A stretch of 64,000 nucleotides of DNA, from positions 1,312 through 65,311 of the forward strand of contig NYZA01000108.1 of assembly GCA_002686955.1 (NCBI GenBank). Reading direction: 5' to 3'. A program made the position numbers and the translations under genes. Position 1 is the first letter of the stretch, and each line of letters begins with the position of its first letter. This document shows positions 29,501 to 43,741 of this stretch, piece after piece. Under the pieces are notes generated by a model. It worked only from the letters and a program-made list of their open reading frames with translations. It searched no databases and was not told the origin of the DNA. This DNA is from Gemmatimonadota bacterium (GTDB taxonomy: Bacteria > GCA-2686955).

Positions 29501-30170
29501 TGAACGACACTTCGGCCGAATCGATTGCCACGGCTCCCATATTCACGACGCGCGCCTCGATCTCCACATCGTCACCAGGCCGCGGCGCGCCCGGCGTCAT
29601 CGTTACGAGCTCTTCGAAGAGGGCAGCGTCGATATCGGCCGGCGTGACGGAATTCCTCACGCCCGGTGTCACGCCGAGGGGATCGAGGCTGGCCGTCCAG
29701 TTTCCGGGGTCGTCCCCCTCGAGAGGCAGGATCTTCTCGATCGAAATGCCGTCGTCGCCTCCGCTCGACCAATGAAACTTCCTCACTCCGTCGAGATCGT
29801 CGACCACCGCGACCGAGTCGCCGGAGTTGCCCAGGCTCATCTTGATCTGAACGATCGGCGTGCCGGGGGGCAGCGACCACTGCCCCAGGAAAGTCAGCGT
29901 ATCGTCGGCGATGATCGCGAAGCCGAAAGGCTCGATCTCCAGCCCAGAAGGCAGTGCAGTCGTGTCGGGGGACGATCCGCCATCGATGAAATCCCAGCCG
30001 GAGAGGTCGACGAGATCGCCTCCTCCGTTGTGCAGCTCGACGAACTCGAGCTTGGTCTGGCTCCCCGGTTCGTTGACGAGCACTTCGTTCAGCACCACCT
30101 CGCCGCGATCGGCCCGCGCGCAGAGGGTGATTGACGCGGCGGCGACGAAAAGAAGTAGCGCCCGCGTCAT
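26583..30170 (-). CDS. giant secreted protein: 4 LTD domains interleaved with CARDB-like Ig domains, with a FlgD-Ig/T9SS-type C-terminal domain
   Basis: LTD signatures VVLNEVLVNEPG..EFVELHN..LSGWDF, ITITEVMANPAGG..EFLELLN..VTGWSLTDGDG (twice) and LVVNEFLNRP..EWIEILN..LAGWTLGDD. CARDB-like PGDDVEI.A.VVN. C-terminus FTLRVFDSLGRPVRTLVD...WDGTDDAG..LGVGIYILL. Confidence 0.85.
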   Translation of the reverse strand: MTRALLLFVAAASITLCARADRGEVVLNEVLVNEPGSQTKLEFVELHNGGGDLVDLSGWDFIDGGSSPDTTALPSGLEIEPFGFAIIADDTLTFLGQWSLPPGTPIVQIKMSLGNSGDSVAVVDDLDGVRKFHWSSGGDDGISIEKILPLEGDDPGNWTASLDPLGVTPGVRNSVTPADIDAALFEELVTMTPGAPRPGDDVEIEARVVNMGAVAIDSAEVSFTIDAVDEFATISVFTLAPGDTGTVEATWLSATAGPHTLTVEVAAPGDEVPGNDSVDLPFTVAGESDITITEVMANPAGGETAIPGGVADEFLELLNRGDSVVDVTGWSLTDGDGVDAIIPWDDAVHGTLEAAGVVTETTLIPAGGYALVLDPEHASPSRGEPQPYSIPAGTIILTVEGSDIGGSGLTTTDPITLYDAGGTGRDDVIDTFGTPKDEEIPGDRDDDGLDGVPFDPGDGISLERIDPSSGDTESNWAQSSEGGTPGAVNSVTPADIDAALFEELVTMTPSAPLPGDDVEIDARLVNQGIGIIDTAEVSFTIDGSDEIATVLVFALAAGDTATAEATWLGATAGPHTLTVEVSATGDEVPGNDLVNISFSVGPSDIAITEVMANPAGGETEIPGGKADEFVELLNRGESVVDVAGWSLTDGDGVDAIIPWDDLTHGTLEAPGVVTGTTLIPAGSHALVLDPDHASPSRGEPQPYSIPAGTVVLTVNGSDIGGSGLAASNDPLTLYDAGGTDRDNVIDTFGTPKDEEDPGDRDDDALDGVPFDPGDGFSLERIDPSSGDTESNWAESSEGGTPGSVNSVTPVARDLACHELYADNPGAAALADLGLTAVVAVAGTTSVSGASLELYLDDDLNEILSPAELIGGPTEIAKISPGDTIEIVFEGGLEEGRHRMVAQVSTDDRPTNDRASLDLAVGDVEAFLVVNEFLNRPDEDSGQPEWIEILNGSERDIDLAGWTLGDDEGRSPLLAADDSPIRLAPGAFVVLTQDLDKMRASFPLVDVPVLEPDRWETLNNTDDVITLADPRGFVVDRVPYDDAWRGKRDNEAGVSWERIDHRGNPASEANWWLSVDPSGSTPGRANSLAGGFSSGISLEVGPDPFSPDGNGFQDETAIRYRLPPKSVFTLRVFDSLGRPVRTLVDEVGSANGVFVWDGTDDAGRTLGVGIYILLAEAKGESLMQAKRTVVVARPLR
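27748..29643. repeat. tandem duplication, 2 x 948 bp, inside the giant LTD gene
   Basis: Units 27748-28695 and 28696-29643 begin with GTGACGGAGTT / GTCACGGAGTT (the next unit boundary, at 29644, reads GTGACGGAATT). They align colinearly at high identity by eye. Each encodes CARDB + LTD. Confidence 0.85.
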
Positions 30171-31405
30171 GGCCCGACCCCCTGAATGACGCGGAAGGTG
30201 CTTCCGTCCGAGACGACGATCAGCGTTCCTTCCTCATCGGTGCGCCGCACTTCGACCCCCGCGTCGGACCAACGCTGAAGCGTTTCCGGATGAGGATGGC
30301 CGTGGGAGTTGTCGGCTCCGACCGAGATCAGGACGAGCTCGGCATCGACCGCCTGCGCGAAAGAGGCGGATGAGCTGAAACGGGATCCGTGATGGGGCGC
30401 TTGCACCACGGCGGCGTCCAGCAGCAGCGGATCTCGCGCGATCAGCTCCGCCTCGGTATCGGCGCCGACATCTCCGGTCAGGAGCGCGGCGAACTGGTCG
30501 AACTCGATCCGGATGACGACCGAGAGCTCGTTCAGCTCGTCCTCGTCGGCGTCGCACTCCGCGGTCAAAACCGTCTCGGGGTTCAGGACGATCAGCCGGC
30601 TCTCTGGATCGGCCATCGGCCACTCCTCGTCGTCGGCGACGTTCAGCACATCGAGGCCGCCCGCCGCGACGAGGCTGTCGACGACCGAGTGCAGCTCGGC
30701 CAGATCGGCGCCACCACCGTCGCGCCGGCAGCTTCGCCAGAGTGTGGTGACCGGCAGGCCGCGAAGTACGCTCGTGAGTCCACCGTAGTGATCCTGGTCC
30801 TGGTGCGTCGAAACGACCAGATCGAGCGCGTTGACCTCGGCGGTACGCAGATACTGGAGCAGGCCGGGGCCCTCCTCCGGCTCCCCTCCGTCCACCAAGA
30901 TCTTCGGGCCATCGGGGAACTCGACCAGGATCGCGTCCCCCTGCCCGACATCGATCATGTGGATGCGGATCTCATCCGCGCCGACGGCGGTGACCGCTCC
31001 GCTCAACTGGTCGTTGGCCGGGTCGTCGTCCTCGATGTCGATCTTGGCCAGAAAGAGATGGTCGCCCGAGGGGAGGGAATCGACGCGGGTCGCGACCAAG
31101 GCCGAGTCGCCCGGGGTCAGCACATCGATGGCGATCGGTCCGCCGGCGATCTCGTCGGGCGCACCAATCTCGTCCTGGTCCTCGTCCAAAAAGAAGGTGA
31201 GGGTCGCGCCGGCGACGAGCTCCTCGCCCTCGTTGAGCACGTTGGCTTCGATCAGAACGCTCTCGCCGACGGTTGCGGGCGACGGGCTCACCCTGATCGC
31301 GGTCAGCGCCAGATCGACCGTCGAAAGCTGCGGCGCAGCGGGCTCTTGCGCGCAGCCCGCGAGCAGGGCGAGCGCGGCGAGCAGCGAAAGTGCGGCTTCT
31401 CTCAT
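30167..31405 (-). CDS. lipoprotein with CARDB-like domain and ComEC/Rec2-type metallo-beta-lactamase domain
   Basis: Lipobox LLAGCAQ. MBL blocks IHMIDVGQGDAILVEF, VVSTHQDQDHYGGL, LLTGDVG and APHHGSRFSSS match the ComEC C-terminal domain pattern. ATGA overlaps at both ends. Confidence 0.8.
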   Translation of the reverse strand: MREAALSLLAALALLAGCAQEPAAPQLSTVDLALTAIRVSPSPATVGESVLIEANVLNEGEELVAGATLTFFLDEDQDEIGAPDEIAGGPIAIDVLTPGDSALVATRVDSLPSGDHLFLAKIDIEDDDPANDQLSGAVTAVGADEIRIHMIDVGQGDAILVEFPDGPKILVDGGEPEEGPGLLQYLRTAEVNALDLVVSTHQDQDHYGGLTSVLRGLPVTTLWRSCRRDGGGADLAELHSVVDSLVAAGGLDVLNVADDEEWPMADPESRLIVLNPETVLTAECDADEDELNELSVVIRIEFDQFAALLTGDVGADTEAELIARDPLLLDAAVVQAPHHGSRFSSSASFAQAVDAELVLISVGADNSHGHPHPETLQRWSDAGVEVRRTDEEGTLIVVSDGSTFRVIQGVGP

Positions 31406-31665
31406 GACGCACCGTCCCGATCTTCGCCTTCGCGCGTCATCTCGAGGAGCCGTTGCTGCAAATCCGCCGTTTTCCCACGGAGCTCGACCTCTCGATCGCT
31501 GTCCCTCTCGACCCGCATCGTGAGACAAGCACCCTCCCCCGCCCCCTCCGGCAGACGCTCGACCGGCAGGAGCATCTCGCCGCCCCCCAGAACCGCGATG
31601 ACCGCGCGCCCCTCTTCGATCCGGTCCACCGTCGCCTGCAATTGCACGATCTTCGCGTCGCTCAT
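31402..31665 (-). CDS. DUF3006-like small protein
   Basis: 87 aa. ATVDRIEEGRAVIAVLGGGEMLLPVERLPEGAGEGACLTM fits the DUF3006 pattern, a family commonly encoded next to ComEC-type MBL genes. Confidence 0.6.
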   Translation of the reverse strand: MSDAKIVQLQATVDRIEEGRAVIAVLGGGEMLLPVERLPEGAGEGACLTMRVERDSDREVELRGKTADLQQRLLEMTREGEDRDGAS

Positions 31666-33464
31666 AAGGAGATCCTCAAGGCTACCCGCGCCTCCGCATC
31701 GGGATTCACGTCGCGGTCGTCATCGGAGTAGAAGCGGCTTCGGGCGCGCGCTTCGAGCGAATACCGATCCAGAAATTTGAGCCTCTCTTCGACCTGAAGC
31801 TCGACGTAAGAGTCGTTGGCCTCGTCGAAGTTGTTGTCTTTCCAACGAAAGCGGAGCCAGGGAGAGACCGGTGCCAGCCGCCGAAACGACGATTCCACCC
31901 AGATCTCGCCGGAGTCTACATCGCCGCTCGAGGTCGTGCGGGTCCGCCAGACCGCCCGAAAGCGCAGGTCGGTGTAGGGCCCCGCGTCGCTGCGTCCATC
32001 GAAGGTCAGGGTGCGCCGTTCGCTCGCCTCCCCCTGCGTGTCGTCGATATCCCAAATATGACGCAAGAAGGCGCGCCGCCTCGTCGAGCGGCGCCAGGCG
32101 AGGGTCGCGTCGGCCCGGCGGTCGGTTTCGCCGTCGATCGCATTCGCCCACCGCGCGAAAGACCCCTCGGCCGTCCAATCACCGACGATCTCGATCTCGG
32201 TCTCGATGAGCGCGCCCCGCTCACCGGCCTGCCGGTCGCGGATCTCGATATCGTCGTCGGGCAGCACATCGAAGCTGCTCCGGTCGGTGTCGGCGGTGCC
32301 TCCGCTGTGCAGGTTTACGTAGTCCGTGCCGTAGTGCCACAGGGTCGCGCCGCTCTCGAAGACCGCCCCCCGCGATTCGACCCGTAGCTCCGAACCCAAC
32401 CCGTGGCCCGGGCTCCAGGAGCTCTCGCCGCTGATCTCCACCAGCCCCGCCCGGGTCGCGCCGAAGAGTGCCAAGAAGTCGCGCTCGAAAGCGTCCCCCG
32501 ATGCTTCCCCGATCAACGATTGACGCGCCCCGATCGCACCGATCGAATGGCGCTCGCCCTCGCGCCCGAGAGATGCGGCGAGCACCCGATCGGTCACCAA
32601 TGCGTAGCGGTTCTCCGAGACCAGCACGACGGGCGAGAACGCGCCGGCCCGGAGCGAAGCGAAGACACCGTTGTATCGGCCGAGTCGGGGGACGAGCAGG
32701 GTGCTGCCCCCCTCGTCGGGAGTGCGCAGGCTCGCCGTCAGGGCGACGCGACGCCCCAGTGTTACTCCGAGCCCGAGCTTCTCGCGGACCGTGCCGAAAA
32801 CCAATCGCTCGATCATCCCCTGTTTTGCGTCGTAGTAGACCGAGCGCTCCTCCAGGCCGGGCTGCTCGTCCTCTTCGGAGCGGGCGCGAAAACGTACCCG
32901 GAAGCGCCCCGCGCCGGCGGGGGAGCGGATGTCCCCGCTGAGGTCGTTGCGCAGATCGCCCTCTTCGTGCAGGTCGCGGGCCGTCTGAATCTTGATCCAG
33001 CCGTCGAGATCGACGCTCGGCAGCATCCGCCCTTGCGTTGTGGGAGTAGCATCCGCCACCGGGCGCTCGGGCACGGCCGCGCGCGTGAACGTGAACACAA
33101 AGAGCTGATCGGGATCGATCCCGGGCACCTCGGCCAGCTCCGCGGTCGAGGCGAAGCCCTCGTTCTTCTCTCGGTGCCGCTCGAGCGCGCTGAGATCGTG
33201 GGGCGTAAAGCCGGGCACCACCAAAAGGCGCGAAAGATCATCGCCGTTGATGTCGACCGGATCGCGAAGCAGCTCGATCAGCTCATCACGGGTCTGCTCG
33301 TCGAGCTCGCCTTCGAAAAAAGCGTCGTTGATATCCTCTTCCGACTCGAGCCGCAGATCGCTGATGAGTTGGGCGCCGGTCTCGCGCAACGAGGTCGCCG
33401 ACAGTACGAGGACCAGGATCGCACCCCACCGCTTCGCCCCGCCGATCGACGGGCGACCGGTCAC
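31662..33464 (-). CDS. outer-membrane protein: N-terminal helix-hairpin-helix (ComEA-like) module + large predicted beta-barrel
   Basis: Signal peptide, then VDINGDDLSRLLVVPGFTPHDLSALERHREKNEGFASTAELAEVPGIDPDQL (HhH). The remaining ~450 aa show alternating beta-strand-like sequence. GTGA overlap with the upstream gene. Confidence 0.6.
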   Translation of the reverse strand: MTGRPSIGGAKRWGAILVLVLSATSLRETGAQLISDLRLESEEDINDAFFEGELDEQTRDELIELLRDPVDINGDDLSRLLVVPGFTPHDLSALERHREKNEGFASTAELAEVPGIDPDQLFVFTFTRAAVPERPVADATPTTQGRMLPSVDLDGWIKIQTARDLHEEGDLRNDLSGDIRSPAGAGRFRVRFRARSEEDEQPGLEERSVYYDAKQGMIERLVFGTVREKLGLGVTLGRRVALTASLRTPDEGGSTLLVPRLGRYNGVFASLRAGAFSPVVLVSENRYALVTDRVLAASLGREGERHSIGAIGARQSLIGEASGDAFERDFLALFGATRAGLVEISGESSWSPGHGLGSELRVESRGAVFESGATLWHYGTDYVNLHSGGTADTDRSSFDVLPDDDIEIRDRQAGERGALIETEIEIVGDWTAEGSFARWANAIDGETDRRADATLAWRRSTRRRAFLRHIWDIDDTQGEASERRTLTFDGRSDAGPYTDLRFRAVWRTRTTSSGDVDSGEIWVESSFRRLAPVSPWLRFRWKDNNFDEANDSYVELQVEERLKFLDRYSLEARARSRFYSDDDRDVNPDAEARVALRISL

Positions 33465-34564
33465 CGTCGCTTCCCCAGCGTCTTCACTTCAAGCCGCTTG
33501 CCGTCGGTCAGAAAACGGATCGTTCCATCCAGATCGGTGCGCAGAACTTCCACACCGGCCGCGTCGAAACGATCGATGGTCGAGCGATGGGGATGCCCGA
33601 ATTTGTTCCGCCGCCCGCACGAGATCGCGGCGATGCTGGGGCGTAGCGTCTCGACGAAGGCCGCCGTGCTGGAGCTTCGGGAGCCGTGGTGCCCCACCTT
33701 CAGAAGGCAGGCCGATTTGAGCTGCCCCGACTGCACCAGCTCCGCCTCCTCCTCCGCCTCGGCGTCGCCGGTGAGCAGCGCGACGAATCCGCCGTACGAA
33801 ATCTCCAGCACGACCGAGCTGTTGTTGACGTTCTCATCTTGGGGCGGCTCGGGACCGAGAATACGAATCTCCACCCGCGGATCGAGATCGAGAGTATCGC
33901 CGCTCTTCGCGATCCGATAGGCGATTTTCCTCTCGGCCAGCCGCTCGAGGAGCGCGGCGTATGTGTCGGACGAATATGGGACTCCGGGATCGACATAGAG
34001 ATCGATCCCGAGCGCGCCCGCCACCGTGACCAGGCCGCCGATATGGTCGGCGTGAGGGTGGCTGCCGACCGCGATGTTCAGCCTGTCGATCCCTCTCTTC
34101 CGCAGAAAGGGCAAGACCGCCTTCTTGCCCATGTCGTCCGGCATCTGGTAGCCGCCCGACTTCTTGCCGGCTCCGCTGCTCGCGTGAAAGGCCATGCCCC
34201 CGTCGACCAGGAGTGTTCGGCCGTTCGGAGCGACGACCAGAATCGCGTCGCCCTGGCCGACATCGATGAGAACGATTTCGAGAACATCCGCGGCCTCGGG
34301 GAGCGGGCCGCGCTCGATCGAGCAGCGTGGACCGATCGGGCGCGGTGCCGGAGTCTCCCCTTTCGGATGCGGAGCCCTGCTCGCCGCCGTCGATGCGGCC
34401 GACGCGGGGGTGACGTGAGCCGGGCGCCGCTTCTGAGATTCCAGCCGATCGGTGTACGGATTGTCGAAAAACCCGCCCGATCCGCACCCCGCGATCAGTG
34501 CGGCGGCGATGGAAAAGAGGGCGAGCAGGGTTCTACTGCGCTGCGTCAAGGAAGGGATGGACAT
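33461..34564 (-). CDS. lipoprotein with ComEC/Rec2-type metallo-beta-lactamase domain (second copy)
   Basis: Lipobox LIAGCGS. MBL blocks LIDVGQGDAILVVAPNG, VGSHPHADHIGGL, LLTGDAE and KVGHHGSRSSS. Confidence 0.8.
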   Translation of the reverse strand: MSIPSLTQRSRTLLALFSIAAALIAGCGSGGFFDNPYTDRLESQKRRPAHVTPASAASTAASRAPHPKGETPAPRPIGPRCSIERGPLPEAADVLEIVLIDVGQGDAILVVAPNGRTLLVDGGMAFHASSGAGKKSGGYQMPDDMGKKAVLPFLRKRGIDRLNIAVGSHPHADHIGGLVTVAGALGIDLYVDPGVPYSSDTYAALLERLAERKIAYRIAKSGDTLDLDPRVEIRILGPEPPQDENVNNSSVVLEISYGGFVALLTGDAEAEEEAELVQSGQLKSACLLKVGHHGSRSSSTAAFVETLRPSIAAISCGRRNKFGHPHRSTIDRFDAAGVEVLRTDLDGTIRFLTDGKRLEVKTLGKRR

Positions 34565-34574
34565 CGATGATTGG

Positions 34575-35726
34575 CTATTTCAGGAGAATCAGCTTGAGGG
34601 TCTCTGTCCATCCGTCTTCCGTCCCCAGGCGGCAGAGATATACGCCGCCGGATCGTGTTCCCGCGTCCCACTCGATACGGTGCTCCCCCGCCGATCGCTG
34701 CTCACCGGCGAGCAGGGTCACCACGCGCTGACCGGCCAGGTCGAAGAGCCCCAGAACGACCGCGGAACGCTCTTCCAGGGCGAAAGAGATCTCGACGTGG
34801 GGGTTGAAGGGGTTGGGGCTTGCGGCGAAGGAGCGGACTATGCTCTCCGGCGGACCCGGCGACCCACTCTCTTCGCCCGCATCGATCGAGGTGGGGAAAT
34901 ACGCGCGGCGAACCAGGGTCGTGTCGATCACGAAGGGATTCGGCCGGCCGCTCTGGTGGTTCGCGATCTGGTTGGTGCGGCTGATCTCGTCGGAGTCGAC
35001 CGGATCGAGCGAGTGCCAGACGCCGAGCACGTCCTTCTGCCGGGGGAAGAAGCTCGCGTCGGCGGCGTCGGCCTCGTCCTTGTACATCGTGTAGAAATAG
35101 AACATCGAGCGGGCGACATTGCCCTTGTGGTCTTCGCGCGGCTCGAAGAGGTCGTCGTCGTTTTCTTGCTCGCTGTATTCCTCGATAAGCGAGCCGGGGA
35201 TCGAAGTGAGGAAGGAATCGAGCCGCCACCACTTGTCGGTCAGATCGTCGGGCAACTCGTCGAAAGGATCGCTCCCTCGCGCGCCGTTCGCCTGGATCCG
35301 CGTCGGGTAGAGGTGGTGCATATCGCTCTTGGCCTGACCGTTCGCTCCCTTGCTCTGCGGCCAGGTGTGCTCGGTATCGATCCCCCCCTGATATGCCTCG
35401 TCGGAGGGATCGCCCCAAGGATCGATGTAGACCGTGAAACCCGTGTAGACCCCCTTCAGCGAGTCTTGGTCGTTGTCGATGTCGCCGTAGAGGATGTCCC
35501 TCGCATCGTCATAGCCCGGGGTGCTCCACGGCTTGTAGGAATCGACGAGAGCCTCGAGCAACTCACTACCCTCGAGATCGGGAAAGATCGGAGTGTTCTG
35601 GGGATGGGCCGCGGTGGGCAGGGCGCAGATGAGCAGCGCCGGTAACGCGGCGGTTGGCAGCCGGGTGCGCATGGGAGGCTTCGCAGGGGGTTGGGGAGAA
35701 ATGGCCGAGCCTTCCAATGGTAACAA
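34575..35726 (-). CDS. secreted endonuclease I family nuclease with T9SS/FlgD-Ig-type C-terminal domain
   Basis: Endonuclease I blocks TEHTWPQSKG, MHHLYPTRIQANGARGSDPF, DHKGNVARSMFYF and GRPNPFV. C-terminus SPNPFNPHVEISFAL...LFDLAGQRVVTL...GGVYLCRL. Confidence 0.85.
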   Translation of the reverse strand: MLPLEGSAISPQPPAKPPMRTRLPTAALPALLICALPTAAHPQNTPIFPDLEGSELLEALVDSYKPWSTPGYDDARDILYGDIDNDQDSLKGVYTGFTVYIDPWGDPSDEAYQGGIDTEHTWPQSKGANGQAKSDMHHLYPTRIQANGARGSDPFDELPDDLTDKWWRLDSFLTSIPGSLIEEYSEQENDDDLFEPREDHKGNVARSMFYFYTMYKDEADAADASFFPRQKDVLGVWHSLDPVDSDEISRTNQIANHQSGRPNPFVIDTTLVRRAYFPTSIDAGEESGSPGPPESIVRSFAASPNPFNPHVEISFALEERSAVVLGLFDLAGQRVVTLLAGEQRSAGEHRIEWDAGTRSGGVYLCRLGTEDGWTETLKLILLK

Positions 35727-35744: not shown

Positions 35745-37133
35745 CTAGAAGTCCAGCATCATCGCCGCCGTCACGCGGAATACCCGCTCTTCGATCCGAT
35801 CCGACTCAGTGCGGGTCTCGGCACCGAAGAGAGCGTCGTCGAAGAGGTCGCCCGTGCGGTACGCGGCGTAGCCCAGAGCCCCGGCGATGTCGATCTTCGC
35901 CGGTCCCGCGGCCATCTGAGTGCCGGCCGTGAAGCCGACTCGATTGCGATCGGCGCCGGTGTAGGGGGCGCCGTAGGTGAATCCGAAGCGGAAGGGGGTT
36001 CCGCCGGGCAGAATATGCTCGACACCGAGCCGATAGCGGGTCACGTCGCTCGGCTTGCCTCCTCCGCCGAGCTCGCCATCCGACTCCCAGGGCTCGTAGT
36101 CGAGCTGGAAGGCGATGTTGGTTCGCACCACGTTCACCGGGTGGAAAAGCAGGCCGATGCTGTGGCGCGAGGCGTAACGGGGGGCGCTCGTCGTTTCGCT
36201 GATCGCCGTGGAATCGCCCACGATCATGGTGGCACGCACATCGTTGTCGAGCTCGATCGCCGATCGAAAGGCGTAGGCGAGCTCCACGCGCTCCCGGTGC
36301 GCCAGACGGACGCCTGCGACGAAGCCGGTACCCGAACCGTCGGTCTCCGTCGTGACCCGCTGGTCGTCGTAGGGCAGCAGGGGTTCGTCCCAGACGATCT
36401 CCCCGTCGATCTGATTGACCACCGTCACCGGCTCGTAAGTTGTCGCTACGATTCGAGAGATCTCCGTCCAGTAGAGATCGACGCCGCCTCCCCACGAAAG
36501 GGTCCATCGGTCGTTCTCGATCAGCTTGTGGCCGAGCGCGAAGGTCAGACGATCGACGCCGCCCTCCTGCATGACCGAGTTCGAGCCGAGCGGCATATCG
36601 GTATAGTCGGCGACGACGTTTTGTCCGGGCAGCTCGGAACGAACGTCCTCGGGGAAAAAGGAGCGGAAGCGCCAGGGCGACAAGATCTGTTCTCGATAGC
36701 TGTAGTCGGCGACGAACGCGGGACGGTAAGAAGCAGCGAGCACCGGCCAGCCGGTCGAGATCGCCCATGCGGCGGCCACGGCCGGATAGGTGTGGCGATC
36801 GGCATTCAGTGCATAAATGTTGTCGGCCAGATAGCCCGAGAAGGAGTCGTGCACCGTATAGGAGCGCCGCTCGTCATCGGTATCGAGAACCCCCACGACC
36901 TGAATCGCGAGCCCTTCGGTCGCCGCGAGGGCTGCGGGATTCGCCGTGACGGCCGCGACACCCTTCGCGAGGGTCATGCCGGTGCCGCCCAACGCCGCTT
37001 CTCTGGCGCCGGCAGCTTCGAAAGGCGATCCCATCTCTTGTTCGGAGAAAGAGATCGACGACGCCGCGGTCGGCGAGATTCCGAACGCGACCAGAAGGGT
37101 TGTCAGGTTTCGCGGGTTCATTTGCATCACCAT
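35745..37133 (-). CDS. FadL/PorV-like outer-membrane beta-barrel protein
   Basis: Signal peptide. N-terminal motif GAREAALGGTGMTLAKGVAAVTANPAAL. Alternating strand pattern. C-terminal ...VTAAMMLDF (terminal Phe). Confidence 0.65.
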   Translation of the reverse strand: MVMQMNPRNLTTLLVAFGISPTAASSISFSEQEMGSPFEAAGAREAALGGTGMTLAKGVAAVTANPAALAATEGLAIQVVGVLDTDDERRSYTVHDSFSGYLADNIYALNADRHTYPAVAAAWAISTGWPVLAASYRPAFVADYSYREQILSPWRFRSFFPEDVRSELPGQNVVADYTDMPLGSNSVMQEGGVDRLTFALGHKLIENDRWTLSWGGGVDLYWTEISRIVATTYEPVTVVNQIDGEIVWDEPLLPYDDQRVTTETDGSGTGFVAGVRLAHRERVELAYAFRSAIELDNDVRATMIVGDSTAISETTSAPRYASRHSIGLLFHPVNVVRTNIAFQLDYEPWESDGELGGGGKPSDVTRYRLGVEHILPGGTPFRFGFTYGAPYTGADRNRVGFTAGTQMAAGPAKIDIAGALGYAAYRTGDLFDDALFGAETRTESDRIEERVFRVTAAMMLDF

Positions 37134-39628
37134 GTGTAATCGAGCTGAAGCCTGAATTGTGTCGACTCGCTGAGCTCGAAGGGTGCGTCGTTCTCTTGCG
37201 AGGAGAACTCGAACTCACCGTTGTAGAGCCGAGCGTCGCGCCAGTTGGTGGGATTCTCGCGATGCCAGGCAGCCTTTAGGTATAGCGAAAGATTGTCGGA
37301 GAGACGATCCCAGATCGAGATCCAAAAGCGCGTGCCTTCACCGTCGACCACGAGGAACTCGGTGTCCTCGAAGTTCCAGAAGAAGCCCTTGAATGCGGTC
37401 GCTCCCGCGCGGAACTTGAGCCGTTCGTTCACGCGATGATCGATCACCGTTCCCAGTGCGATCGACGGTTCCGTCTCGGATCCTTGTAGCGGCACATTTT
37501 CTTCCGGATCCGCGTCGCGATAAATCGGCCCTCCCTCACGCGTACCCGCCAGCCGGCCGCGAGAGGGCCATCGAGTGTGGCCGATGTGGTAGAGGAACTC
37601 GATTCCGTTGCGATCGGAGAGGAAGAGGCGCAGGCGGAAACGATCCTCGATCGTTTGGCTGATCTCGATAGTCTCGGCGAAACCCTCTTCGTTTCGGGAT
37701 TGCCATTTGTGTCGCCACTGCAAGCGCAAGGGCCAGGTCGGTGAGAACTCGAGCCTCGGCACGATCCGTTTGAACGCCGATCCATCCGACTTCCGGATCC
37801 AGGTCGAGTAATCGACCGTCGCCAGGAGCATTCGGTGCAGTCGGTAGCGGGTCGACCCGTAGAACCCCCGCTCCGGAGCCGGCTGGGCGCTGTTGACGTA
37901 GAGCTCCGCCATCAGCGGATTGGTCAGCCGGAAGGGGTCCTCGAAAATCGTATCGTCGTAACGCTCTTTCTCACTGAAGGCCCGATTGAAGGGGTTGTCG
38001 TAGTCGACGTCGTAGTCGCGGAAGGAGAGCAGAAGGTTCAGGTTCGACCACTGCGCGAAGGCCGTCGCGATAATGGCGTCGCCGGCGCCGAGCTGCTTTC
38101 CGTACTCGATCTGCCCCACGGCGTTCTTCCAGACGACCTGCGCCTCGCCGCCCACGACCCGCCGGAACTTTCCCTCGAGCTGGTTCGACATCAAATACTC
38201 GTTGTCGATCGGAGCGATGTTGTCGAGCGCGTCGTCGCGGATGACCCCGTCGAACGAAGGTAGGAAGAAACGGTCGTAGAGCGATTCGTACCCCGTCACG
38301 GCGACGTGGCTGCCGGGTGCGAGCTCGAAACGAATACTCCCGCCCCACGTAGTCTCGTCTACCGAATCGGTGGCGATGAACGCGGCGTTCGAATCGAGCT
38401 GCGTCGGATGAAGCGCGAGCGTATCGGGCAGATCGTCCGAGTCGATTCTAGGGTTCAGAGTGATCAGCGTCCGGACCTGACCGGCATTGTCGAGAATCGC
38501 GTCGCGTTCATCGTTCGACCAGAAGCCGATCAGTCGCAGGTTTCCCCAGGCGAGCTGTGCCGCCGCCCCCTGGAAGGCATGCTGATTGGTGCGGCTGATG
38601 TCGCCGAGGATTCCCTGCTGCCGCTTGTCGAAGATGAGTCCGCTCTTTCGCGGCCGGTAGAAATCGGTGTTCTCGAGTATCAGCCCCTGGCCCATCGCGA
38701 GCGAGTAGTTGCCGGCGACGAAATGCTCCAGCTCGAAGGGCCCCATCGAGAGATTTTTCGTGCCTAGATACCCCTTGAGCGTTCCGGAAAGGTCGCTCTC
38801 GAAAGCGTTGCGATGGGTGATCAGTCCGGCCTCCCACCGATCTCCCACCCGTCCCCGAATCTTCGTCGTCACCTCGGGCTGCTGCTCATCCAAGCCCAGC
38901 AACGCATATGCGTCGCGAACGAACTGTTGGTTGTAGTAAGTGGAATCGTTGTCGGCCGCGTAGAAGTCCTCTCGAAAGAGGTCTTCGTTGTCGGTCATCG
39001 TCAGCGGCCGACTGATGCGAAACTGGGCATCTCCACCGAATCCGCGCCCGATCTCGTCCTCGTAGCGCACGTAGTCGCGGACCGAGCGCCAGCCGAAATG
39101 AGATAGATCGGGAGTGCTGCGCAGATCACGGCTCGATCGGATCGGTCTGCCGCCTCTTACGTGGCGCACGATCGCCGCGGCATCGATCGGCGAAACGCCG
39201 GGAAGGGATTGAAGGCGGTCGGTGCTCGCGGTTGCGAGCGTGATCGGAACGCGAAGCTGATCGATGTAGTTGTCGATCAGCGCCTCGTTCGCTCCCTCCT
39301 GCGCGGTGAGCCGAGAGATGCTGGCGTAGAGCCGATCCATCCGCTGGACGTCGAGGTCGCGCCCCTCTTCGGGAAGGATCGCCACCTTGTCGCGAAGTGT
39401 GAGCAGATGGTCTTGCGTCAATCCGGGCACCAGCCTGAGGTCGTAGAACGATTCGAAGGCGCCGTGGTACTTGAGCCGATCGAGCAGCGCCTCACTCACC
39501 TCGGTGGGGAGCGGCAGGGCGCGAATCTCATCGGGGCCGGCGTTGTTGATATCGACCGGGACCGAGGCCGCCGCGGAGCGCGCCAGGACCAGGGCGGCCA
39601 GCGGCCAGAGGAGCTTGCTCCGGCGCAT
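37127..39628 (-). CDS. large outer-membrane protein: two N-terminal ComEA-like HhH modules + ~700-aa predicted beta-barrel
   Basis: Start at MRRSKLLWPLAALVLARSAAA (signal peptide). HhH 1 is VDINNAGPDEIRALPLPTEVSEALLDRLKYHGAFESFYDLRLVPGLTQDHL. HhH 2 is LQSLPGVSPIDAAAIVRHVRGGRPIRSSRDL. C-terminus is ...FRLQLDYTW (aromatic end). The upstream ~165 codons of ORF 37127-40126 are rejected because they overlap the next gene. Confidence 0.65.
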   Translation of the reverse strand: MRRSKLLWPLAALVLARSAAASVPVDINNAGPDEIRALPLPTEVSEALLDRLKYHGAFESFYDLRLVPGLTQDHLLTLRDKVAILPEEGRDLDVQRMDRLYASISRLTAQEGANEALIDNYIDQLRVPITLATASTDRLQSLPGVSPIDAAAIVRHVRGGRPIRSSRDLRSTPDLSHFGWRSVRDYVRYEDEIGRGFGGDAQFRISRPLTMTDNEDLFREDFYAADNDSTYYNQQFVRDAYALLGLDEQQPEVTTKIRGRVGDRWEAGLITHRNAFESDLSGTLKGYLGTKNLSMGPFELEHFVAGNYSLAMGQGLILENTDFYRPRKSGLIFDKRQQGILGDISRTNQHAFQGAAAQLAWGNLRLIGFWSNDERDAILDNAGQVRTLITLNPRIDSDDLPDTLALHPTQLDSNAAFIATDSVDETTWGGSIRFELAPGSHVAVTGYESLYDRFFLPSFDGVIRDDALDNIAPIDNEYLMSNQLEGKFRRVVGGEAQVVWKNAVGQIEYGKQLGAGDAIIATAFAQWSNLNLLLSFRDYDVDYDNPFNRAFSEKERYDDTIFEDPFRLTNPLMAELYVNSAQPAPERGFYGSTRYRLHRMLLATVDYSTWIRKSDGSAFKRIVPRLEFSPTWPLRLQWRHKWQSRNEEGFAETIEISQTIEDRFRLRLFLSDRNGIEFLYHIGHTRWPSRGRLAGTREGGPIYRDADPEENVPLQGSETEPSIALGTVIDHRVNERLKFRAGATAFKGFFWNFEDTEFLVVDGEGTRFWISIWDRLSDNLSLYLKAAWHRENPTNWRDARLYNGEFEFSSQENDAPFELSESTQFRLQLDYTW

Positions 39629-40557
39629 CAGAACTCGACTCCCACTCCGAGGTAGTGCGATGAGGGCAGGATCGGATGGTCTCCGAAAGTGTAGTCGAAG
39701 ACGAAGTTGCCGAATGCGATGCGGGCGCCACCCGAGAAGCGCGCGGGCTCCGATCCGACTCCTACGCGAAGCGTGAGCATCTCGACGATTCGGTACTCCA
39801 TGCCTGCCCGCAGCAGCGATGGGGCTTCCCCCGATCTCAGCTCGACCTCTCCCGTAGTGACCACGTCGGGATAGGGCTGGTAGGCGGCGCCGAGAGTCAG
39901 CGCCTCGAGAAGCTGAATCCGGTCGGTATCGCCCAGCGTGGGGCGATTGAGGTTGCGCAGAACGGCGCTCAAGAAGGTACGGCCTTCGAGGTTCGCCCTC
40001 ACACCGACATCGAAGCCGACGGCCGATGCGCTGCCCAGATCGATTCTGTCGACATACGAATCGGTCGCTGGCACGTAGGTGCCCGCTGAAGTGCCGAATC
40101 CCAGCTGGTGCATATGGGCTGCCCAACCCACGGCCAAGCTGGAGTGAACATCCTCCATGACCGTGAAGCCGTGCGCGATCGAGAGGGTGAACTCGTTCGA
40201 GAGGCGCTCGCCCTGGCTCGATTTGGTCATGAAGGTCCGCACGCCAGCAGCCGCCGAGCCGAACTTGCCCATCGGGAAACCGGCGTATGCCAGACTGTGG
40301 CTCAGGAAGTCGAAGTTGCCGATTCGATTGTGACTGAACGCCGCGTTCGTGGACGAGAGACTCGCCAGGCCCGCCGGGTTGTAGTAGAGCGCCGACGCAT
40401 CGTCGAGCAGGGCGCTGGCCGCGCCACCGATCGCCATGGCTCGAGGCGTGGGGCCTTGAAGCTCGAAAACGGCGTGCGCCGGGGAGGTCGCGACGACCGT
40501 GCCGGCAAGGAGCGCGAGAGCGGCCTTCAAAAGAGAATCAGTCAAGGCGGGCTCCAA
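39628..40557 (-). CDS. FadL/PorV-like outer-membrane beta-barrel protein (paralog of the barrel in 25435-26586)
   Basis: Signal KAALALLAGTVVATSPAHA. Motif AMAIGGAASALLDDASALYYNPAGLASL. C-terminal ...LGVGVEF. An alternative TTG start at 40530 gives a clean signal peptide. TGATG junction with the next gene. Confidence 0.65.
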   Translation of the reverse strand: MEPALTDSLLKAALALLAGTVVATSPAHAVFELQGPTPRAMAIGGAASALLDDASALYYNPAGLASLSSTNAAFSHNRIGNFDFLSHSLAYAGFPMGKFGSAAAGVRTFMTKSSQGERLSNEFTLSIAHGFTVMEDVHSSLAVGWAAHMHQLGFGTSAGTYVPATDSYVDRIDLGSASAVGFDVGVRANLEGRTFLSAVLRNLNRPTLGDTDRIQLLEALTLGAAYQPYPDVVTTGEVELRSGEAPSLLRAGMEYRIVEMLTLRVGVGSEPARFSGGARIAFGNFVFDYTFGDHPILPSSHYLGVGVEF

Positions 40558-42208
40558 TCACGATGGGCGCCGATGCCGCGGTGATCGAGCCGTCGCCCGT
40601 CTGCGACGCCCGAATGTGCACGATGTAGGTGCCGGCGGTGAGGCGTTGGTTCAAGCGGTCCCTTCCGTCCCAGTAGAGATCTCTGTCGCCGTAGGGAGGC
40701 GCATTCGGTTCTTCCAGCAGCGTTGCTACCGAACGCCCCGTCATATCGAAGATTTGGATCCAGACATGGCTCTCCGGTGGAGCATTCCAGATCAACCGCA
40801 CCTTCTCCTGAGCGGTGGGCGCGAAGAGCGCCCGCGGCACGCTCAAGGTCGCGTGATCCACCGTCAGCGTGTCGAGCCCATCGGGAGGCGTGCCCGCGAG
40901 ACTCAGATCCTCCTGGTAGTTGAGCAAGATCTGAAAAGCGTCGTTGTAGACCGAGCCGACCCCCTTGGCCTCGATCAGCTGATCGCGGGAGAGGTTCTCC
41001 TCGATGAAAGCCCCCAGACCGGCAGTGTCCCAGACCCGAACCGTCGTGTTTCCCGATCCATCCGATATCTCGATATTCCACCCTCCGCCGGCGTTCGATG
41101 GGGTCTCCGTCACCCAACCGTTCACCGTGATCAGCGTTCCGTCCCATTTCGGATCGTTCGCCTCGGCGATGGTGAGCAGACTGTCCGCCGGAAGCGGCGC
41201 CCCGACTCCCAGATTCTCTACTTCGCTGATGACGACCTCGGTCGTTCGGAACTGCACGGTGGGGTCGTCCTCTTCGGGTGGGTAGTCCACCACTTCGCCC
41301 GTGATCCGAACCCGTGTCCCCCGCACTAGATCCTCATGGGCCTTGCCGAACTCGAAGATATTGATCCCCCGCCCCGATTCGTCCTGCACATAGATCGATG
41401 TCGCGGGACTGCCCGAAATCTCCTCCGCGACCTTGCCCCAGCCGACCGTGACGACGCCCTCGATGGTGACGTTCCTCCCATCGTAGACATCGATGCTGTC
41501 CTGAATCGACGCGATGGGCGTGATCTTGCCAACCCACTCGCCACCGACCCAGAGATCGGAATCGTCGACGAGCAACACCTGGAAGTCGTCCGTATAGGGA
41601 GAGACGATCCCCTTCACCGTGATCGAGTCGCTCATGTCGACCGCCGACAGATCGATACCGATCGAATCCCAGACCCTCACCGTGATCTCGCCGCTGCCGT
41701 CGTCGACGCCGATATTCGCGCCGCCGCCTAGCCCTTTGATGAAATCGGTCACCTCCCCCGTGATCTGAACGTAGCTTCCCTCATGCTCGGCATCGTTGGC
41801 CGCCGCCGTGGTCAGCGTCGCCGGCGTGGGCAGAGGCTGCCCCGTCGCCTCGATGCTCGGAGCCGATGAGGGGAGGATCTCGGTCGTACGGTTGTCGTTA
41901 CTACCCTGGTAGTCCTCAATCTCACCGGTGACCTTGATCAGGTCGCCCCGGTTCCACGGATAGAGAGTGTTGTAGTCGAAGACCTGGATCCCGTGGCCGG
42001 AGTCGTCCTGAATGTAGACCGACGTTCGTCCGGACCATAGGTCGCCGTTGTCTCCCAGACTGACCCCTTGGACGGTAACAGTCCGCCCATCGTAGACATC
42101 GATGCTGTCCTGGATATTGGCGATCGGAACGATCGTCTGGGCGGTCGCCGATGTGGCCAGAAGGGTGAGGCAGCAGGCAGGGAAGACGAGGAGCCGTAGT
42201 GGGCGCAC
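40538..42208 (-). CDS. secreted protein with three ExeM/NucH-type OB-fold-like modules and a T9SS/FlgD-Ig-type C-terminal domain
   Basis: Signal peptide. Repeats of I(A/P)(S/N)IQDSIDVYDGR.VT..GV......S.Y(I/V)QD.SG.GI..F.....RG..(I/V).(V/I)TGE(I/V).DY. C-terminus VWIQIFDMTGRSVATLL...LYWDGRD...AGTYIVHI. Confidence 0.7.
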   Translation of the reverse strand: MRPLRLLVFPACCLTLLATSATAQTIVPIANIQDSIDVYDGRTVTVQGVSLGDNGDLWSGRTSVYIQDDSGHGIQVFDYNTLYPWNRGDLIKVTGEIEDYQGSNDNRTTEILPSSAPSIEATGQPLPTPATLTTAAANDAEHEGSYVQITGEVTDFIKGLGGGANIGVDDGSGEITVRVWDSIGIDLSAVDMSDSITVKGIVSPYTDDFQVLLVDDSDLWVGGEWVGKITPIASIQDSIDVYDGRNVTIEGVVTVGWGKVAEEISGSPATSIYVQDESGRGINIFEFGKAHEDLVRGTRVRITGEVVDYPPEEDDPTVQFRTTEVVISEVENLGVGAPLPADSLLTIAEANDPKWDGTLITVNGWVTETPSNAGGGWNIEISDGSGNTTVRVWDTAGLGAFIEENLSRDQLIEAKGVGSVYNDAFQILLNYQEDLSLAGTPPDGLDTLTVDHATLSVPRALFAPTAQEKVRLIWNAPPESHVWIQIFDMTGRSVATLLEEPNAPPYGDRDLYWDGRDRLNQRLTAGTYIVHIRASQTGDGSITAASAPIVIGARLD

Positions 42209-43654: not shown

Positions 43655-43741
43655 GGGGTCTCCTTCGTGAGCCACGAACATCAAGGGTGGTGCGTGGCGG
43701 TCGATCGGGGATAAGGGAGCCCATGTTCGCCCTGGAAGGCC

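What the first reader, a model, noticed from the sequence alone, without database searches (positions are those of the whole stretch)
37127..39628. ComEA-type helix-hairpin-helix modules fused to the N-terminus of very large outer-membrane beta-barrels
37127-39628 begins with a signal peptide and two ComEA-like HhH units (VDINNAGPDEIRALP..., LQSLPGVSPIDAAAIVRHV...). About 700 residues of alternating beta-strand sequence follow, ending in an aromatic residue (...LQLDYTW). 31662-33464 has the same plan with one HhH unit.

ComEA is normally a small periplasmic or membrane-anchored DNA receptor. Placing it at the periplasmic face of a barrel big enough to be a translocon suggests a DNA-pulling or DNA-gated outer-membrane channel. 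That would differ from the PilQ secretin route used in known diderm competence.
Basis: partly seen in the sequence, partly recalled or inferred. Interest (0 to 1): 0.8.

Follow-up and report, generated by a model that had tools for sequence, protein, structure and literature searches.

The report
ComEA-like outer-membrane barrel in DNA-scavenging operon
An uncharacterised protein family joins two ComEA-type DNA-binding-like modules to a roughly 24-strand outer-membrane barrel and sits at the centre of a conserved extracellular-DNA-scavenging gene cassette, so it is probably a new route for DNA across the outer membrane.

Summary
Window 37127-39628 (-) encodes an 833-aa protein with a signal peptide and two HHH_3 (ComEA-type) modules. 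About 24 amphipathic beta strands follow, ending in ...DYTW. The barrel matches no Pfam, NCBIfam or PDB family.

Window 31662-33464 (-) is a distant, shorter paralogue with one HhH module (hhalign 97.7%). Its structure model is weak.

The gene is the centre of a tightly packed 10-gene operon (42208-26583, minus strand). The operon also encodes:
- a surface OB-fold/DUF5689 protein
- two FadL/PorV-type small barrels
- Endonuclease I
- two ComEC-type MBL lipoproteins
- a lamin-tail-domain protein

Across 82 related loci (FCB-type phyla, nearly all labelled MAGs) the core order is kept: OB/LTD protein, ~300-aa barrel, HhH-barrel, ~440-aa FadL-like barrel, 5'-nucleotidase. The partners were found in 74/76, 63/72 and 48/59 loci with enough flank.

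My best reading is a TonB-independent, pilus-independent outer-membrane conduit for extracellular DNA or oligonucleotides, with a periplasmic HhH catcher. It feeds catabolism rather than, or besides, transformation. It parallels the Bacteroidota Ddb and Riemerella systems, with a non-homologous barrel in place of the TonB-dependent transporter.

DNA binding and DNA conduction are inferred, not shown. I found no description of this family in the literature.

The parts
37127..39628 (-). HhH-barrel 1 (833 aa): signal peptide, two HHH_3 modules, about 24-strand outer-membrane barrel, C-terminal ...DYTW
39359..39562 (-). HhH module 1 (aa 23-90)
   Evidence: The family profile aligns to ComEA 8dss and to EEPD1 over profile positions 16-87. 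AF2 helices 32-78.
39059..39250 (-). HhH module 2 (aa 127-190), with invariant S146-P147-x-D149-A150
   Evidence: Best Pfam HHH_3 stretch is 127-176. Invariant columns. Helices 136-183.
37130..39040 (-). Barrel domain (aa 197-833). Conserved loops at aa 313-351 and 540-585. Lumen-facing register is net basic.
   Evidence: No Pfam, NCBIfam or PDB sequence match.
39628..40557 (-). Small barrel of about 300 aa, FadL/PorV superfamily. Immediately upstream of the HhH-barrel in 74/76 loci.
35745..37133 (-). FadL/TodX/BamG-like barrel (462 aa). Immediately downstream in 63/72 loci.
40538..42208 (-). Surface nucleic-acid-binding protein: three OB-fold matches, DUF5689 (DdbD-type) and a FlgD_ig-like C-terminal sorting domain
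   Evidence: PF01336 at 1.9e-19; PF18942 at 40.1 bits against a cutoff of 28.6. OB/LTD protein found upstream in 63/66 loci.
34575..35726 (-). Endonuclease I with a borderline T9SS-type C-terminal tail. The true start is probably the MRTRLP Met near 35672.
33461..34564 (-). Stand-alone ComEC-C-terminal-type MBL lipoprotein (lipobox LIAGC)
   Evidence: TIGR00361 at 1.3e-44, matching profile positions 441-663 only
31662..33464 (-). HhH-barrel 2 (600 aa): one HhH module plus a distant paralogous barrel
31402..31665 (-). DUF3006 small protein
30167..31405 (-). CARDB plus ComEC-type MBL lipoprotein. Start taken at the MREAAL Met; lipobox LLAGC.
26583..30170 (-). Lamin-tail-domain (four matched stretches) and CARDB surface protein with a FlgD_ig-like tail. 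Carries an internal tandem duplication of about 946 nt.

Best explanation
The 833-aa protein is the central outer-membrane conduit of an extracellular-DNA scavenging machine.

**Proposed steps**
1. Surface proteins capture extracellular DNA. These are the OB-fold/DUF5689 and LTD proteins, which carry T9SS-type tails. (Domains shown; role inferred.)
2. A surface Endonuclease I cuts the DNA. (Domain shown; location inferred from its tail.)
3. DNA or oligonucleotide fragments cross the outer membrane through the roughly 24-strand barrel. Its lumen-facing register is net basic. The two co-conserved FadL/PorV-type barrels bind the large barrel and dock the tailed surface proteins at its mouth, as PorV does for SprA and BamG does for BamA. 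(Inferred.)
4. The two N-terminal HhH modules hang in the periplasm. They catch the incoming strand, limit back-sliding and hand it to periplasmic enzymes. (Inferred.)
5. ComEC-type MBL lipoprotein nucleases act here. In most relatives a signal-peptide-bearing 5'-nucleotidase acts instead or as well. Hydrolysis makes uptake irreversible without TonB or a pilus. (Inferred.)
6. Nucleosides and phosphate are then imported. Some loci carry an ABC importer.

The 600-aa paralogue, with its own MBL nuclease, DUF3006 and LTD protein, is a second, reduced copy of the same idea.
For: **Architecture**
- HHH_3 twice, then a 24-strand amphipathic barrel with a beta-signal.

**Operon**
- Ten genes with overlapping or abutting ends. 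All the non-barrel genes except DUF3006 carry DNA-related domains.

**Synteny across 82 loci from many FCB-type phyla**
- Small barrel upstream in 74/76.
- OB/LTD protein upstream in 63/66.
- FadL-like barrel downstream in 63/72.
- 5'-nucleotidase within 5 kb in 48/59; any nuclease or nucleotidase in 52/59.
- Distant loci L084 and L085 keep the cassette and add ABC-importer genes (an SBP_bac_1 binding protein in both; permeases and an ATPase only in L085). L085 also adds a DHH phosphoesterase.

**No alternative transporter**
- No TonB-dependent transporter is encoded among the genes annotated or screened in these loci. The HhH-barrel occupies the place DdbC has in Bacteroidota DNA-utilisation loci, whose DUF5689 partner is shared here (PMC8459023; bioRxiv 10.1101/2025.03.18.642099).

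**Lumen charge**
- The lumen-facing register has family means of 30.1 K/R against 19.1 D/E. One strand reads RQRKQR.

**Orientation**
- A variant with N-terminal TPR repeats before the HhH modules (P0083) resembles the periplasmic TPR-barrel polymer transporters BcsC, PelB and PgaA (that comparison is from my own knowledge). This supports a periplasmic N-terminus and a polymer substrate.

**Precedent for multi-barrel complexes**
- FadL-fold barrels serve as partners of bigger barrels (BamG-BamA, PorV-SprA; PMC12578637). The partner families hit BamG, TodX and PorV.
Against: - No experiment exists on any member. Nearly all carry MAG or metagenome labels, and I found no cultured carrier.
- In the second HhH module, at the position where ComEA has G-I-G-P-x-K-A, the family has an invariant S-P-x-D-A. 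The HhH region is net acidic (+19.7/-28.9). ComEA-type HhH domains can also be acidic overall (my own rough count for B. subtilis ComEA).
- Most predicted extracellular loops are acidic.
- Two highly conserved loops (313-351 and 540-585) might plug the pore. The model is uncertain there (pLDDT 37-76).
- I could not inspect model coordinates, so pore size and HhH orientation are inferred from topology and barrel geometry.
- The 5'-nucleotidase could act outside the cell, with products entering through ordinary porins.
- Eight of the 82 loci lack the downstream partners.
Confidence: 0.5

Rival explanations
1. It is a competence machine. The same barrel complex brings long double-stranded DNA into the periplasm for ComEC/DprA-dependent natural transformation. 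In that case it would replace the type IV pilus/PilQ/ComEA route, as the DUF5689 plus TonB-type barrel system does in Riemerella.
For: - HhH modules of the ComEA type.
- ComEC-type MBL domains in the operon.
- A DUF5689 protein homologous to a component essential for Riemerella transformation (PMC8459023).
- The Ddb paper argues that catabolic and transformation systems are related.
Against: - The conserved partner is a 5'-nucleotidase (48/59 loci), with nucleases, ABC-importer genes and, in one locus, a DHH phosphoesterase. These destroy DNA rather than preserve it.
- The MBL proteins here are stand-alone lipoproteins without the ComEC channel domain.
- No comEC, dprA or pil genes were seen in the loci examined.
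- This reading does not exclude the best explanation.
Confidence: 0.15
2. It is a scaffold, not a conduit. The three barrels form an outer-membrane platform that anchors and organises the T9SS-delivered DNA-binding proteins and nucleases, as BamG and PorV do for other proteins. DNA is fully degraded outside the cell, and small products enter by other routes. The HhH modules would serve protein contacts, or sense periplasmic nucleic acid.
For: - Both partner barrels belong to the FadL/PorV/BamG superfamily, whose FCB-group members act as docking platforms.
- Surface proteins in the loci carry Por_Secre_tail or FlgD_ig tails.
- The basic hairpin residue seen in ComEA is lost in the HhH modules.
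- HHH_3-like folds also occur in non-DNA proteins such as T2SS GspK and PsbU, which give weak hits here.
- The conserved loops 313-351 and 540-585 have low model confidence, as expected for partner interfaces.
Against: - A 24-strand barrel is far larger than an anchor needs.
- The lumen register is net basic.
- Periplasm-type enzymes (lipoprotein MBL nucleases, signal-peptide 5'-nucleotidases) need substrate inside the outer membrane.
- The loci encode no other candidate transporter.
Confidence: 0.2
3. It is an exporter. The barrel secretes DNA or another polymer for a matrix, in the manner of the TPR-barrel exopolysaccharide porins. The HhH modules would guide the DNA outward.
For: - The TPR-HhH-barrel variant P0083 resembles the architecture of BcsC, PelB and PgaA (from my own knowledge).
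- The Foldseek hit list includes AlgE and a polysaccharide porin, at low TM-scores.
Against: - No polymer synthase or DNA-release genes lie in the loci.
- The conserved neighbours are degradative and import functions.
Confidence: 0.05

Closest known systems
DdbCD of Bacteroides thetaiotaomicron and RA0C_RS04915/04920 of Riemerella anatipestifer (DNA-utilisation and natural-transformation loci of Bacteroidota)
   Same: - The locus logic is PUL-like: a surface DNA-binding protein with a DUF5689/OB fold (present here, PF18942 at 40 bits), secreted and periplasmic nucleases, and a dedicated outer-membrane barrel.
- Both are independent of type IV pili.
- Both occur in FCB-group bacteria.
   Different: - Their barrel is a TonB-dependent transporter with a carboxypeptidase-regulatory-like domain.
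- The barrel here has no Plug, TonB_dep_Rec or CarbopepD_reg match and no recognisable plug.
- It has about 24 strands and carries fused HhH modules.
- It comes with two FadL/PorV-type barrels.
- In Riemerella the HhH protein is a separate gene.
ComEA (periplasmic or membrane-anchored DNA receptor of competent bacteria)
   Same: - The same (HhH)2 HHH_3 fold (Pfam 1e-11; PDB ComEA 8dss at 1e-6).
- A predicted periplasmic location.
- A proposed role in retaining incoming DNA, as shown for Vibrio cholerae ComEA (abstract of PMC3879209, listed).
   Different: - It is fused to a 637-residue barrel and is present in two copies.
- It scores far below the ComEA family cutoff (TIGR01259: 23 bits against 152).
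- The ComEA hairpin G-I-G-P-x-K-A is replaced by an invariant S-P-x-D-A.
- It is tethered, so it cannot coat DNA in many copies.
PorV-SprA (T9SS) and BamG-BamA (Bacteroidota BAM): a large barrel with FadL-fold partner barrels
   Same: - The co-conserved partners are FadL/PorV/BamG-superfamily barrels (PDB BamG 9hiv_F at 8e-19, TbuX/TodX, PorV 6h3i).
- The loci include proteins with T9SS-type tails.
   Different: - The large barrel is homologous neither to SprA nor to BamA.
- The partners fall below the PorV/PorQ/BamG family cutoffs.
- A physical complex is inferred only from synteny.
PilQ secretin / type IV pilus DNA uptake
   Same: It has the same task, moving DNA across the outer membrane, with a periplasmic HhH protein on the inside.
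   Different: - This is a monomeric beta-barrel rather than a multimeric secretin.
- There is no Secretin domain and no pilus genes in the loci.
Chaperone-usher ushers (FimD/PapC), the known 24-strand monomeric barrels
   Same: - A similar strand count.
- They appear among the Foldseek hits (FimD 3ohn_A, target-normalised TM-score 0.45).
   Different: - There is no Usher Pfam match, no plug and no N- or C-terminal usher domains.
- TM-scores are too low to claim homology.

Membership tests
ComEA (TIGR01259 / HHH_3-containing competence DNA receptor) | (HhH)2 domain of the HHH_3 type | tested here: met
   PF12836 E=1.1e-11, two stretches. 23/23 homologues hit it. The profile hits ComEA structures 8dss, 8dfk and 2duy.
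ComEA (TIGR01259 / HHH_3-containing competence DNA receptor) | Whole-protein match to the ComEA family model; a small protein without other large domains | tested here: not met
   TIGR01259 scores 23 bits against a cutoff of 152. The protein is 833 aa with a 637-residue barrel.
ComEA (TIGR01259 / HHH_3-containing competence DNA receptor) | Basic residue in the first hairpin (G-I-G-P-x-K-A in the ComEA structure 8dss) | tested here: not met
   In module 2 the family has invariant S146, P147, D149 and A150 at that place. Compared by eye with the ComEA sequence shown.
ComEA (TIGR01259 / HHH_3-containing competence DNA receptor) | Sequence-independent DNA binding in vitro | not testable with these tools
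   Needs EMSA or fluorescence anisotropy on residues 23-195.
TonB-dependent transporter (DdbC / RA0C_RS04915 type) | Plug domain, TonB box, 22-strand TonB_dep_Rec barrel, CarbopepD_reg-like domain | tested here: not met
   No such Pfam or NCBIfam hit at E<=1 in 23 members. No PDB sequence hit to the barrel. Foldseek hits to TBDTs are generic (query-normalised TM-score <=0.31).
Ddb-like DNA-utilisation locus | Secreted or periplasmic nucleases plus a DUF5689 surface DNA-binding protein beside an outer-membrane transporter | tested here: met
   Endonuclease I, two MBL nucleases and DUF5689 at 40.1 bits in the same operon. Conserved synteny.
Ddb-like DNA-utilisation locus | The transporter is a DdbC homologue | tested here: not met
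   See the TBDT row. The loci of the Ddb paper were anchored on DdbC homologues.
Secretin (PilQ) | Secretin C-terminal domain and N-domains | tested here: not met
   No Secretin hit. The model is a monomeric barrel.
   No Pfam or PDB sequence match. Foldseek gives only generic barrel similarity; the best target-normalised TM-score is 0.45.
FadL/PorV/BamG superfamily (the two partner barrels) | Profile similarity to FadL-fold 14-strand barrels | tested here: met
   A4 against PDB: BamG 9hiv_F 8e-19, TbuX 6e-13, TodX. A3 against PDB: PorV 5.8e-6. A3 against A4: 99.1%. Toluene_X is hit by 12/20 and 9/22 members.
PorV / PorQ / BamG proper (the two partner barrels) | Score above the NCBIfam family cutoff | tested here: not met
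   PorV_fam 38.9 bits against 90. BamG 16.9 bits against 250.

The most novel reading that the evidence does not exclude
The HhH-barrel, with its two FadL-type partner barrels, is a previously unknown class of outer-membrane nucleic-acid translocon. It would be TonB-independent and pilus-independent, with a built-in ComEA-like periplasmic catch. It would be widespread in uncultured FCB-superphylum phyla and able to pass polymeric DNA for food, and possibly for transformation.
Probability: 0.35. Interest if true: 0.85.

Novelty: new variant of a known kind. Interest (0 to 1): 0.72.

Why it matters
Extracellular DNA is a major phosphorus, nitrogen and carbon pool in sediments and soils. How diderm bacteria move it across the outer membrane is known for only a few routes:
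- the PilQ secretin with a type IV pilus
- the Helicobacter ComB system (from my own knowledge)
- the recently described TonB-dependent DdbC/Riemerella route

This family would add a third barrel-type solution. It appears in about 418 loci among the species-representative genomes. The phyla are Gemmatimonadota, Eisenbacteria, Zixibacteria, Latescibacterota, Krumholzibacteriota, Fibrobacterota, Calditrichota, WOR-3, Edwardsbacteria and Fermentibacteria, which are abundant but mostly uncultured.

It gives a testable candidate for TonB-free polymer import driven by periplasmic capture and hydrolysis. It also offers a genomic marker for DNA-foraging potential in metagenomes. Finally, it extends the emerging theme of multi-barrel outer-membrane complexes built around FadL-fold partners.

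Tried and rejected
- **Foldseek of the model against PDB.** It returned only generic barrel hits: TBDTs, FimD, MtrB, LptD and AlgE, with query-normalised TM-scores <=0.31. No family could be assigned.
- **PDB, Pfam and NCBIfam sequence searches of the barrel.** Nothing matched beyond the HhH modules.
- **Context of the distant relative of protein 2 (P0178, L083).** The neighbours are unrelated housekeeping genes, so it was uninformative.
- **Promoter and terminator scan of the operon.** Counts were at or below the shuffled expectation. It supports no conclusion beyond the absence of obvious internal terminators.
- **TRF on the LTD gene.** It missed the long duplication, which repeat finder then found.
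- **Literature searches.** Queries on HhH plus barrel, DUF5689, ddbABCDEF, ComEA/T9SS/nucleotidase and 'DNA utilization locus' found no description of this family.
- **Net charge of the HhH region.** I considered using it as evidence against DNA binding and rejected that, because bona fide ComEA HhH domains can also be acidic overall (my own rough count for B. subtilis ComEA).
- **Model coordinates.** They were not available to scripts. Plug state, pore diameter and HhH placement could not be measured.

Full report
**1. The observation**

Window 37127-39628 on the minus strand is a real gene. It has high third-position GC. Its ATG at 39628 overlaps the TGA of the upstream gene by one base.

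The 833-aa product starts with a Sec-type signal peptide, judged by eye. Pfam HHH_3 matches with E=1.1e-11 in two stretches. All 23 aligned homologues carry HHH_3. A profile of the family hits the solved ComEA structures 8dss, 8dfk and 2duy, and the tandem HhH modules of EEPD1.

An AlphaFold2 model built on the 23-sequence alignment has pLDDT 72 and pTM 0.71. It shows two helical modules (about residues 24-90 and 127-190) joined by two linker helices, then beta strands from 197 to 832.

From the DSSP string I count 24 membrane strands. In every strand one register is hydrophobic across the family and the other is polar. The C-terminus (...LQLDYTW; family consensus ...FRLQxDYxF) is a typical beta-signal. 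The barrel part is about 637 residues rather than 700. Otherwise the description is correct.

**2. The second gene**

Window 31662-33464 (-) encodes a 600-aa protein.
- Its HHH_3 match is just under threshold: 26.2 bits against 27.
- It has only six homologue clusters.
- A profile-profile comparison with the first family gives 97.7% probability, E=1.6e-12, over 412 columns. These cover the HhH module and the barrel.
- Its model is weak (pLDDT 58) but all-beta, with 24 listed strands.

It is a distant, shortened paralogue.

**3. What the barrel is not**

No Pfam or NCBIfam model covers it, even at E<=1 in 23 members. No PDB sequence matches it.

Foldseek returns only generic large-barrel hits: TonB-dependent receptors, FimD usher, MtrB, LptD and AlgE. 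Query-normalised TM-scores are at most 0.31, and the best target-normalised score is 0.45.

It is therefore not a secretin, TonB-dependent transporter, usher, LptD, BamA or FadL member by any test available here.

**4. Surroundings in the window**

The gene lies in a ten-gene minus-strand operon, 42208-26583, whose genes overlap or abut. In order:

| Position | Product |
|---|---|
| 40538-42208 | Three OB-fold matches, DUF5689 (40.1 bits, cutoff 28.6), FlgD_ig-like C-terminal domain |
| 39628-40557 | 309-aa barrel with weak PorV/PorQ/PorP and FadL similarity |
| 37127-39628 | HhH-barrel 1 |
| 35745-37133 | 462-aa barrel |
| 34575-35726 | Endonuclease I with a borderline T9SS tail |
| 33461-34564 | Lipoprotein made of the ComEC C-terminal metallo-beta-lactamase domain only (TIGR00361 1.3e-44, profile positions 441-663) |
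| 31662-33464 | HhH-barrel 2 |
| 31402-31665 | DUF3006 |
| 30167-31405 | CARDB plus ComEC-type MBL lipoprotein |
| 26583-30170 | 1195-aa lamin-tail-domain/CARDB protein with a FlgD_ig-like tail |

Flanking genes are housekeeping, including LpxB, so the organism is a diderm.

**5. Related loci**

The family is modest in size.
- The word-indexed search found 25 clusters.
- The exhaustive representative search found 158 clusters at E<=1e-30, many of them fragments.
- The species-representative genome collection holds 418 loci.

Carriers are labelled Gemmatimonadota (84-92% identity to the window, so the window is probably from that lineage), Eisenbacteria, Zixibacteria, Latescibacterota, Krumholzibacteriota, Fibrobacteraceae, Calditrichota, KSB1, Ignavibacteria, Lentisphaeria, WOR-3, TA06, Fermentibacteraceae and Edwardsbacteria. 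Nearly all are labelled MAGs or metagenome contigs. [quoted passage not shown]

I translated all ORFs of 82 loci and searched them with the window's proteins and those of two annotated loci. Counts are among loci with enough flank:

| Partner | Loci |
|---|---|
| ~300-aa barrel directly upstream | 74/76 |
| OB/LTD protein further upstream | 63/66 |
| ~440-aa barrel directly downstream | 63/72 |
| 5'-nucleotidase (Metallophos + 5_nucleotid_C) within 5 kb downstream | 48/59 |
| Any nuclease or nucleotidase | 52/59 |

Most of the 5'-nucleotidases have a plain signal peptide and no lipobox. In loci with precomputed annotation the nuclease slot is filled by Exo_endo_phos proteins or by the 5'-nucleotidase.

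Two distant loci keep the small barrel / HhH-barrel / ~400-aa protein / 5'-nucleotidase order. They are L084 (its protein cluster includes a Fermentibacteraceae-labelled member) and L085 (cluster includes Edwardsbacteria-labelled members). Both add ABC-importer genes. L085 also has a DHH phosphoesterase and LTD/OB proteins with T9SS tails.

Eight loci lack some partners.

**6. The partner barrels**

Profiles of the two partner families are related to each other (hhalign 99.1%).
- The ~440-aa family hits the BamG subunit of the Bacteroidota BAM complex (9hiv_F, 8e-19), TbuX/TodX and PorV. Toluene_X is hit in 12/20 members.
- The ~300-aa family hits PorV over its N-terminal part (5.8e-6). It hits Toluene_X, TraF_2 and PorP_SprF in subsets of members.

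None reaches the curated cutoffs for PorV, PorQ or BamG.

BamG is a FadL-fold barrel bound to BamA and is a platform for surface lipoproteins. The same paper describes PorV as a FadL homologue proposed to bind and shuttle T9SS substrates (PMC12578637). That PorV docks on the SprA translocon is from my own knowledge. This is the precedent for proposing a three-barrel complex here. The complex itself is inferred from synteny only.

**7. Link to known DNA systems**

In Riemerella anatipestifer, natural transformation needs three proteins and uses no known pilus machinery. They are a DUF5689 surface protein, a TonB-type barrel and a separate HhH protein (PMC8459023).

In Bacteroides thetaiotaomicron, the ddbABCDEF locus (nucleases, the TonB-dependent DdbC, the DUF5689 protein DdbD) is required for depletion of exogenous DNA. 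It is organised like a polysaccharide-utilisation locus (bioRxiv 10.1101/2025.03.18.642099).

The operon here shares the DUF5689/OB protein and the nuclease logic but has no TonB-dependent transporter. The HhH-barrel with its two partners occupies that place.

**8. Mechanism proposed**

*Shown:*
- the domain architecture
- the strand amphipathicity
- the conserved cassette

*Inferred:*
- The N-terminus is periplasmic, because an even strand number places both termini on the periplasmic side. One variant, P0083, adds TPR repeats N-terminal to the HhH modules. BcsC, PelB and PgaA have periplasmic TPR domains before their barrels (from my own knowledge).
- The lumen can take nucleic acid. The lumen-facing register averages 30.1 K/R against 19.1 D/E in the family, with a strongly basic strand 634-645. 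Barrel geometry for 24 strands gives a C-alpha radius near 22 Å, my own estimate from the standard formula. That is wide enough for duplex DNA if loops do not occlude it.

*Proposed pathway:*
1. Surface OB/LTD proteins and Endonuclease I capture and cut extracellular DNA.
2. Fragments pass through the barrel.
3. The HhH modules hold them in the periplasm.
4. MBL nucleases and the 5'-nucleotidase degrade them, which makes uptake irreversible.
5. Products are imported.

**9. Weak points**

- In the second module's first hairpin, at the position where ComEA 8dss has G-I-G-P-x-K-A, the family has an invariant S146-P147-x-D149-A150.
- The whole HhH region is net acidic.
- Most predicted outer loops are acidic.
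- The two most conserved loops (313-351 and 540-585; column conservation 0.72 and 0.70) have modest or low model confidence. They could be plugs or partner interfaces.
- I could not read the model coordinates.
- No member has been studied, and I found no cultured carrier.

**10. Rivals**

I weigh four readings:

| Reading | Confidence |
|---|---|
| Import conduit for scavenging | 0.50 |
| Docking scaffold with degradation outside the cell | 0.20 |
| Feeder for natural transformation (not exclusive of the first) | 0.15 |
| Exporter | 0.05 |

**11. Novelty and verdict**

Searches of the held literature found no description of an HhH-barrel fusion or of this cassette.

I classify it as a new variant of a known kind. 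It is a DNA-utilisation or DNA-uptake locus of FCB-group bacteria in which a non-homologous, ComEA-fused barrel with about 24 strands and two FadL-type partners replaces the TonB-dependent transporter.

If DNA translocation were shown, the transporter itself would be a new class. Interest is 0.72.

Noticed in passing
window 27745-29619 (within gene 26583-30170, minus strand): The lamin-tail-domain gene carries a tandem duplication of about 945-948 nt (about 315 aa, an LTD-CARDB unit). The two copies are 77-91% identical at the DNA level.
   Followed up: partly
window 33461-34564 and 30167-31405 (minus strand); DUF3006 at 31402-31665: Two stand-alone lipoproteins consist of the ComEC C-terminal metallo-beta-lactamase domain without the ComEC channel. 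One of them directly follows a DUF3006 gene with an ATGA-type overlap. MBL367-like genes recur in related loci. They lie between the FadL-like barrel and the 5'-nucleotidase in L051, L055, L063, L075 and L076, and about 9 kb upstream in many other loci.
   Followed up: partly
L040, L041, L042, L044, L045, L047 (HhH-barrel genes): These proteins are 95-98.6% identical to each other. Their records are labelled Latescibacterota, Fibrobacter sp., Gemmatimonas sp. or just 'bacterium'. Submitter taxonomy of these MAGs is unreliable, or the locus moved recently between lineages.
   Followed up: partly
P0083 (1251 aa, from the representative search): This variant of the family has an N-terminal extension of about 430 residues, rich in TPR repeats, before the HhH modules and the barrel.
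   Followed up: partly
L085 1003-4548 and 16581-19627; L084 5857-7158: Distant loci place other genes next to the cassette. Both have an SBP_bac_1 binding-protein gene. L085 also has two BPD_transp_1 permease genes, an ABC ATPase and a DHH-family phosphoesterase.
   Followed up: no
L046, L048, L056, L059, L065, L067: A subgroup of loci keeps the OB protein and the ~300-aa barrel but shows no detectable FadL-like barrel or 5'-nucleotidase downstream. The records are labelled KSB1, 'Alphaproteobacteria' or unclassified.
   Followed up: no
window 42905-43684 (minus strand): A TerB-domain plus DnaJ-domain fusion protein lies just upstream of the operon.
   Followed up: no
window 14010-16034 (minus strand) and 20362-21294 (plus strand): ORFs of 674 aa and 310 aa have coding-type GC3 but no Pfam match at E<=0.001.
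   Followed up: no
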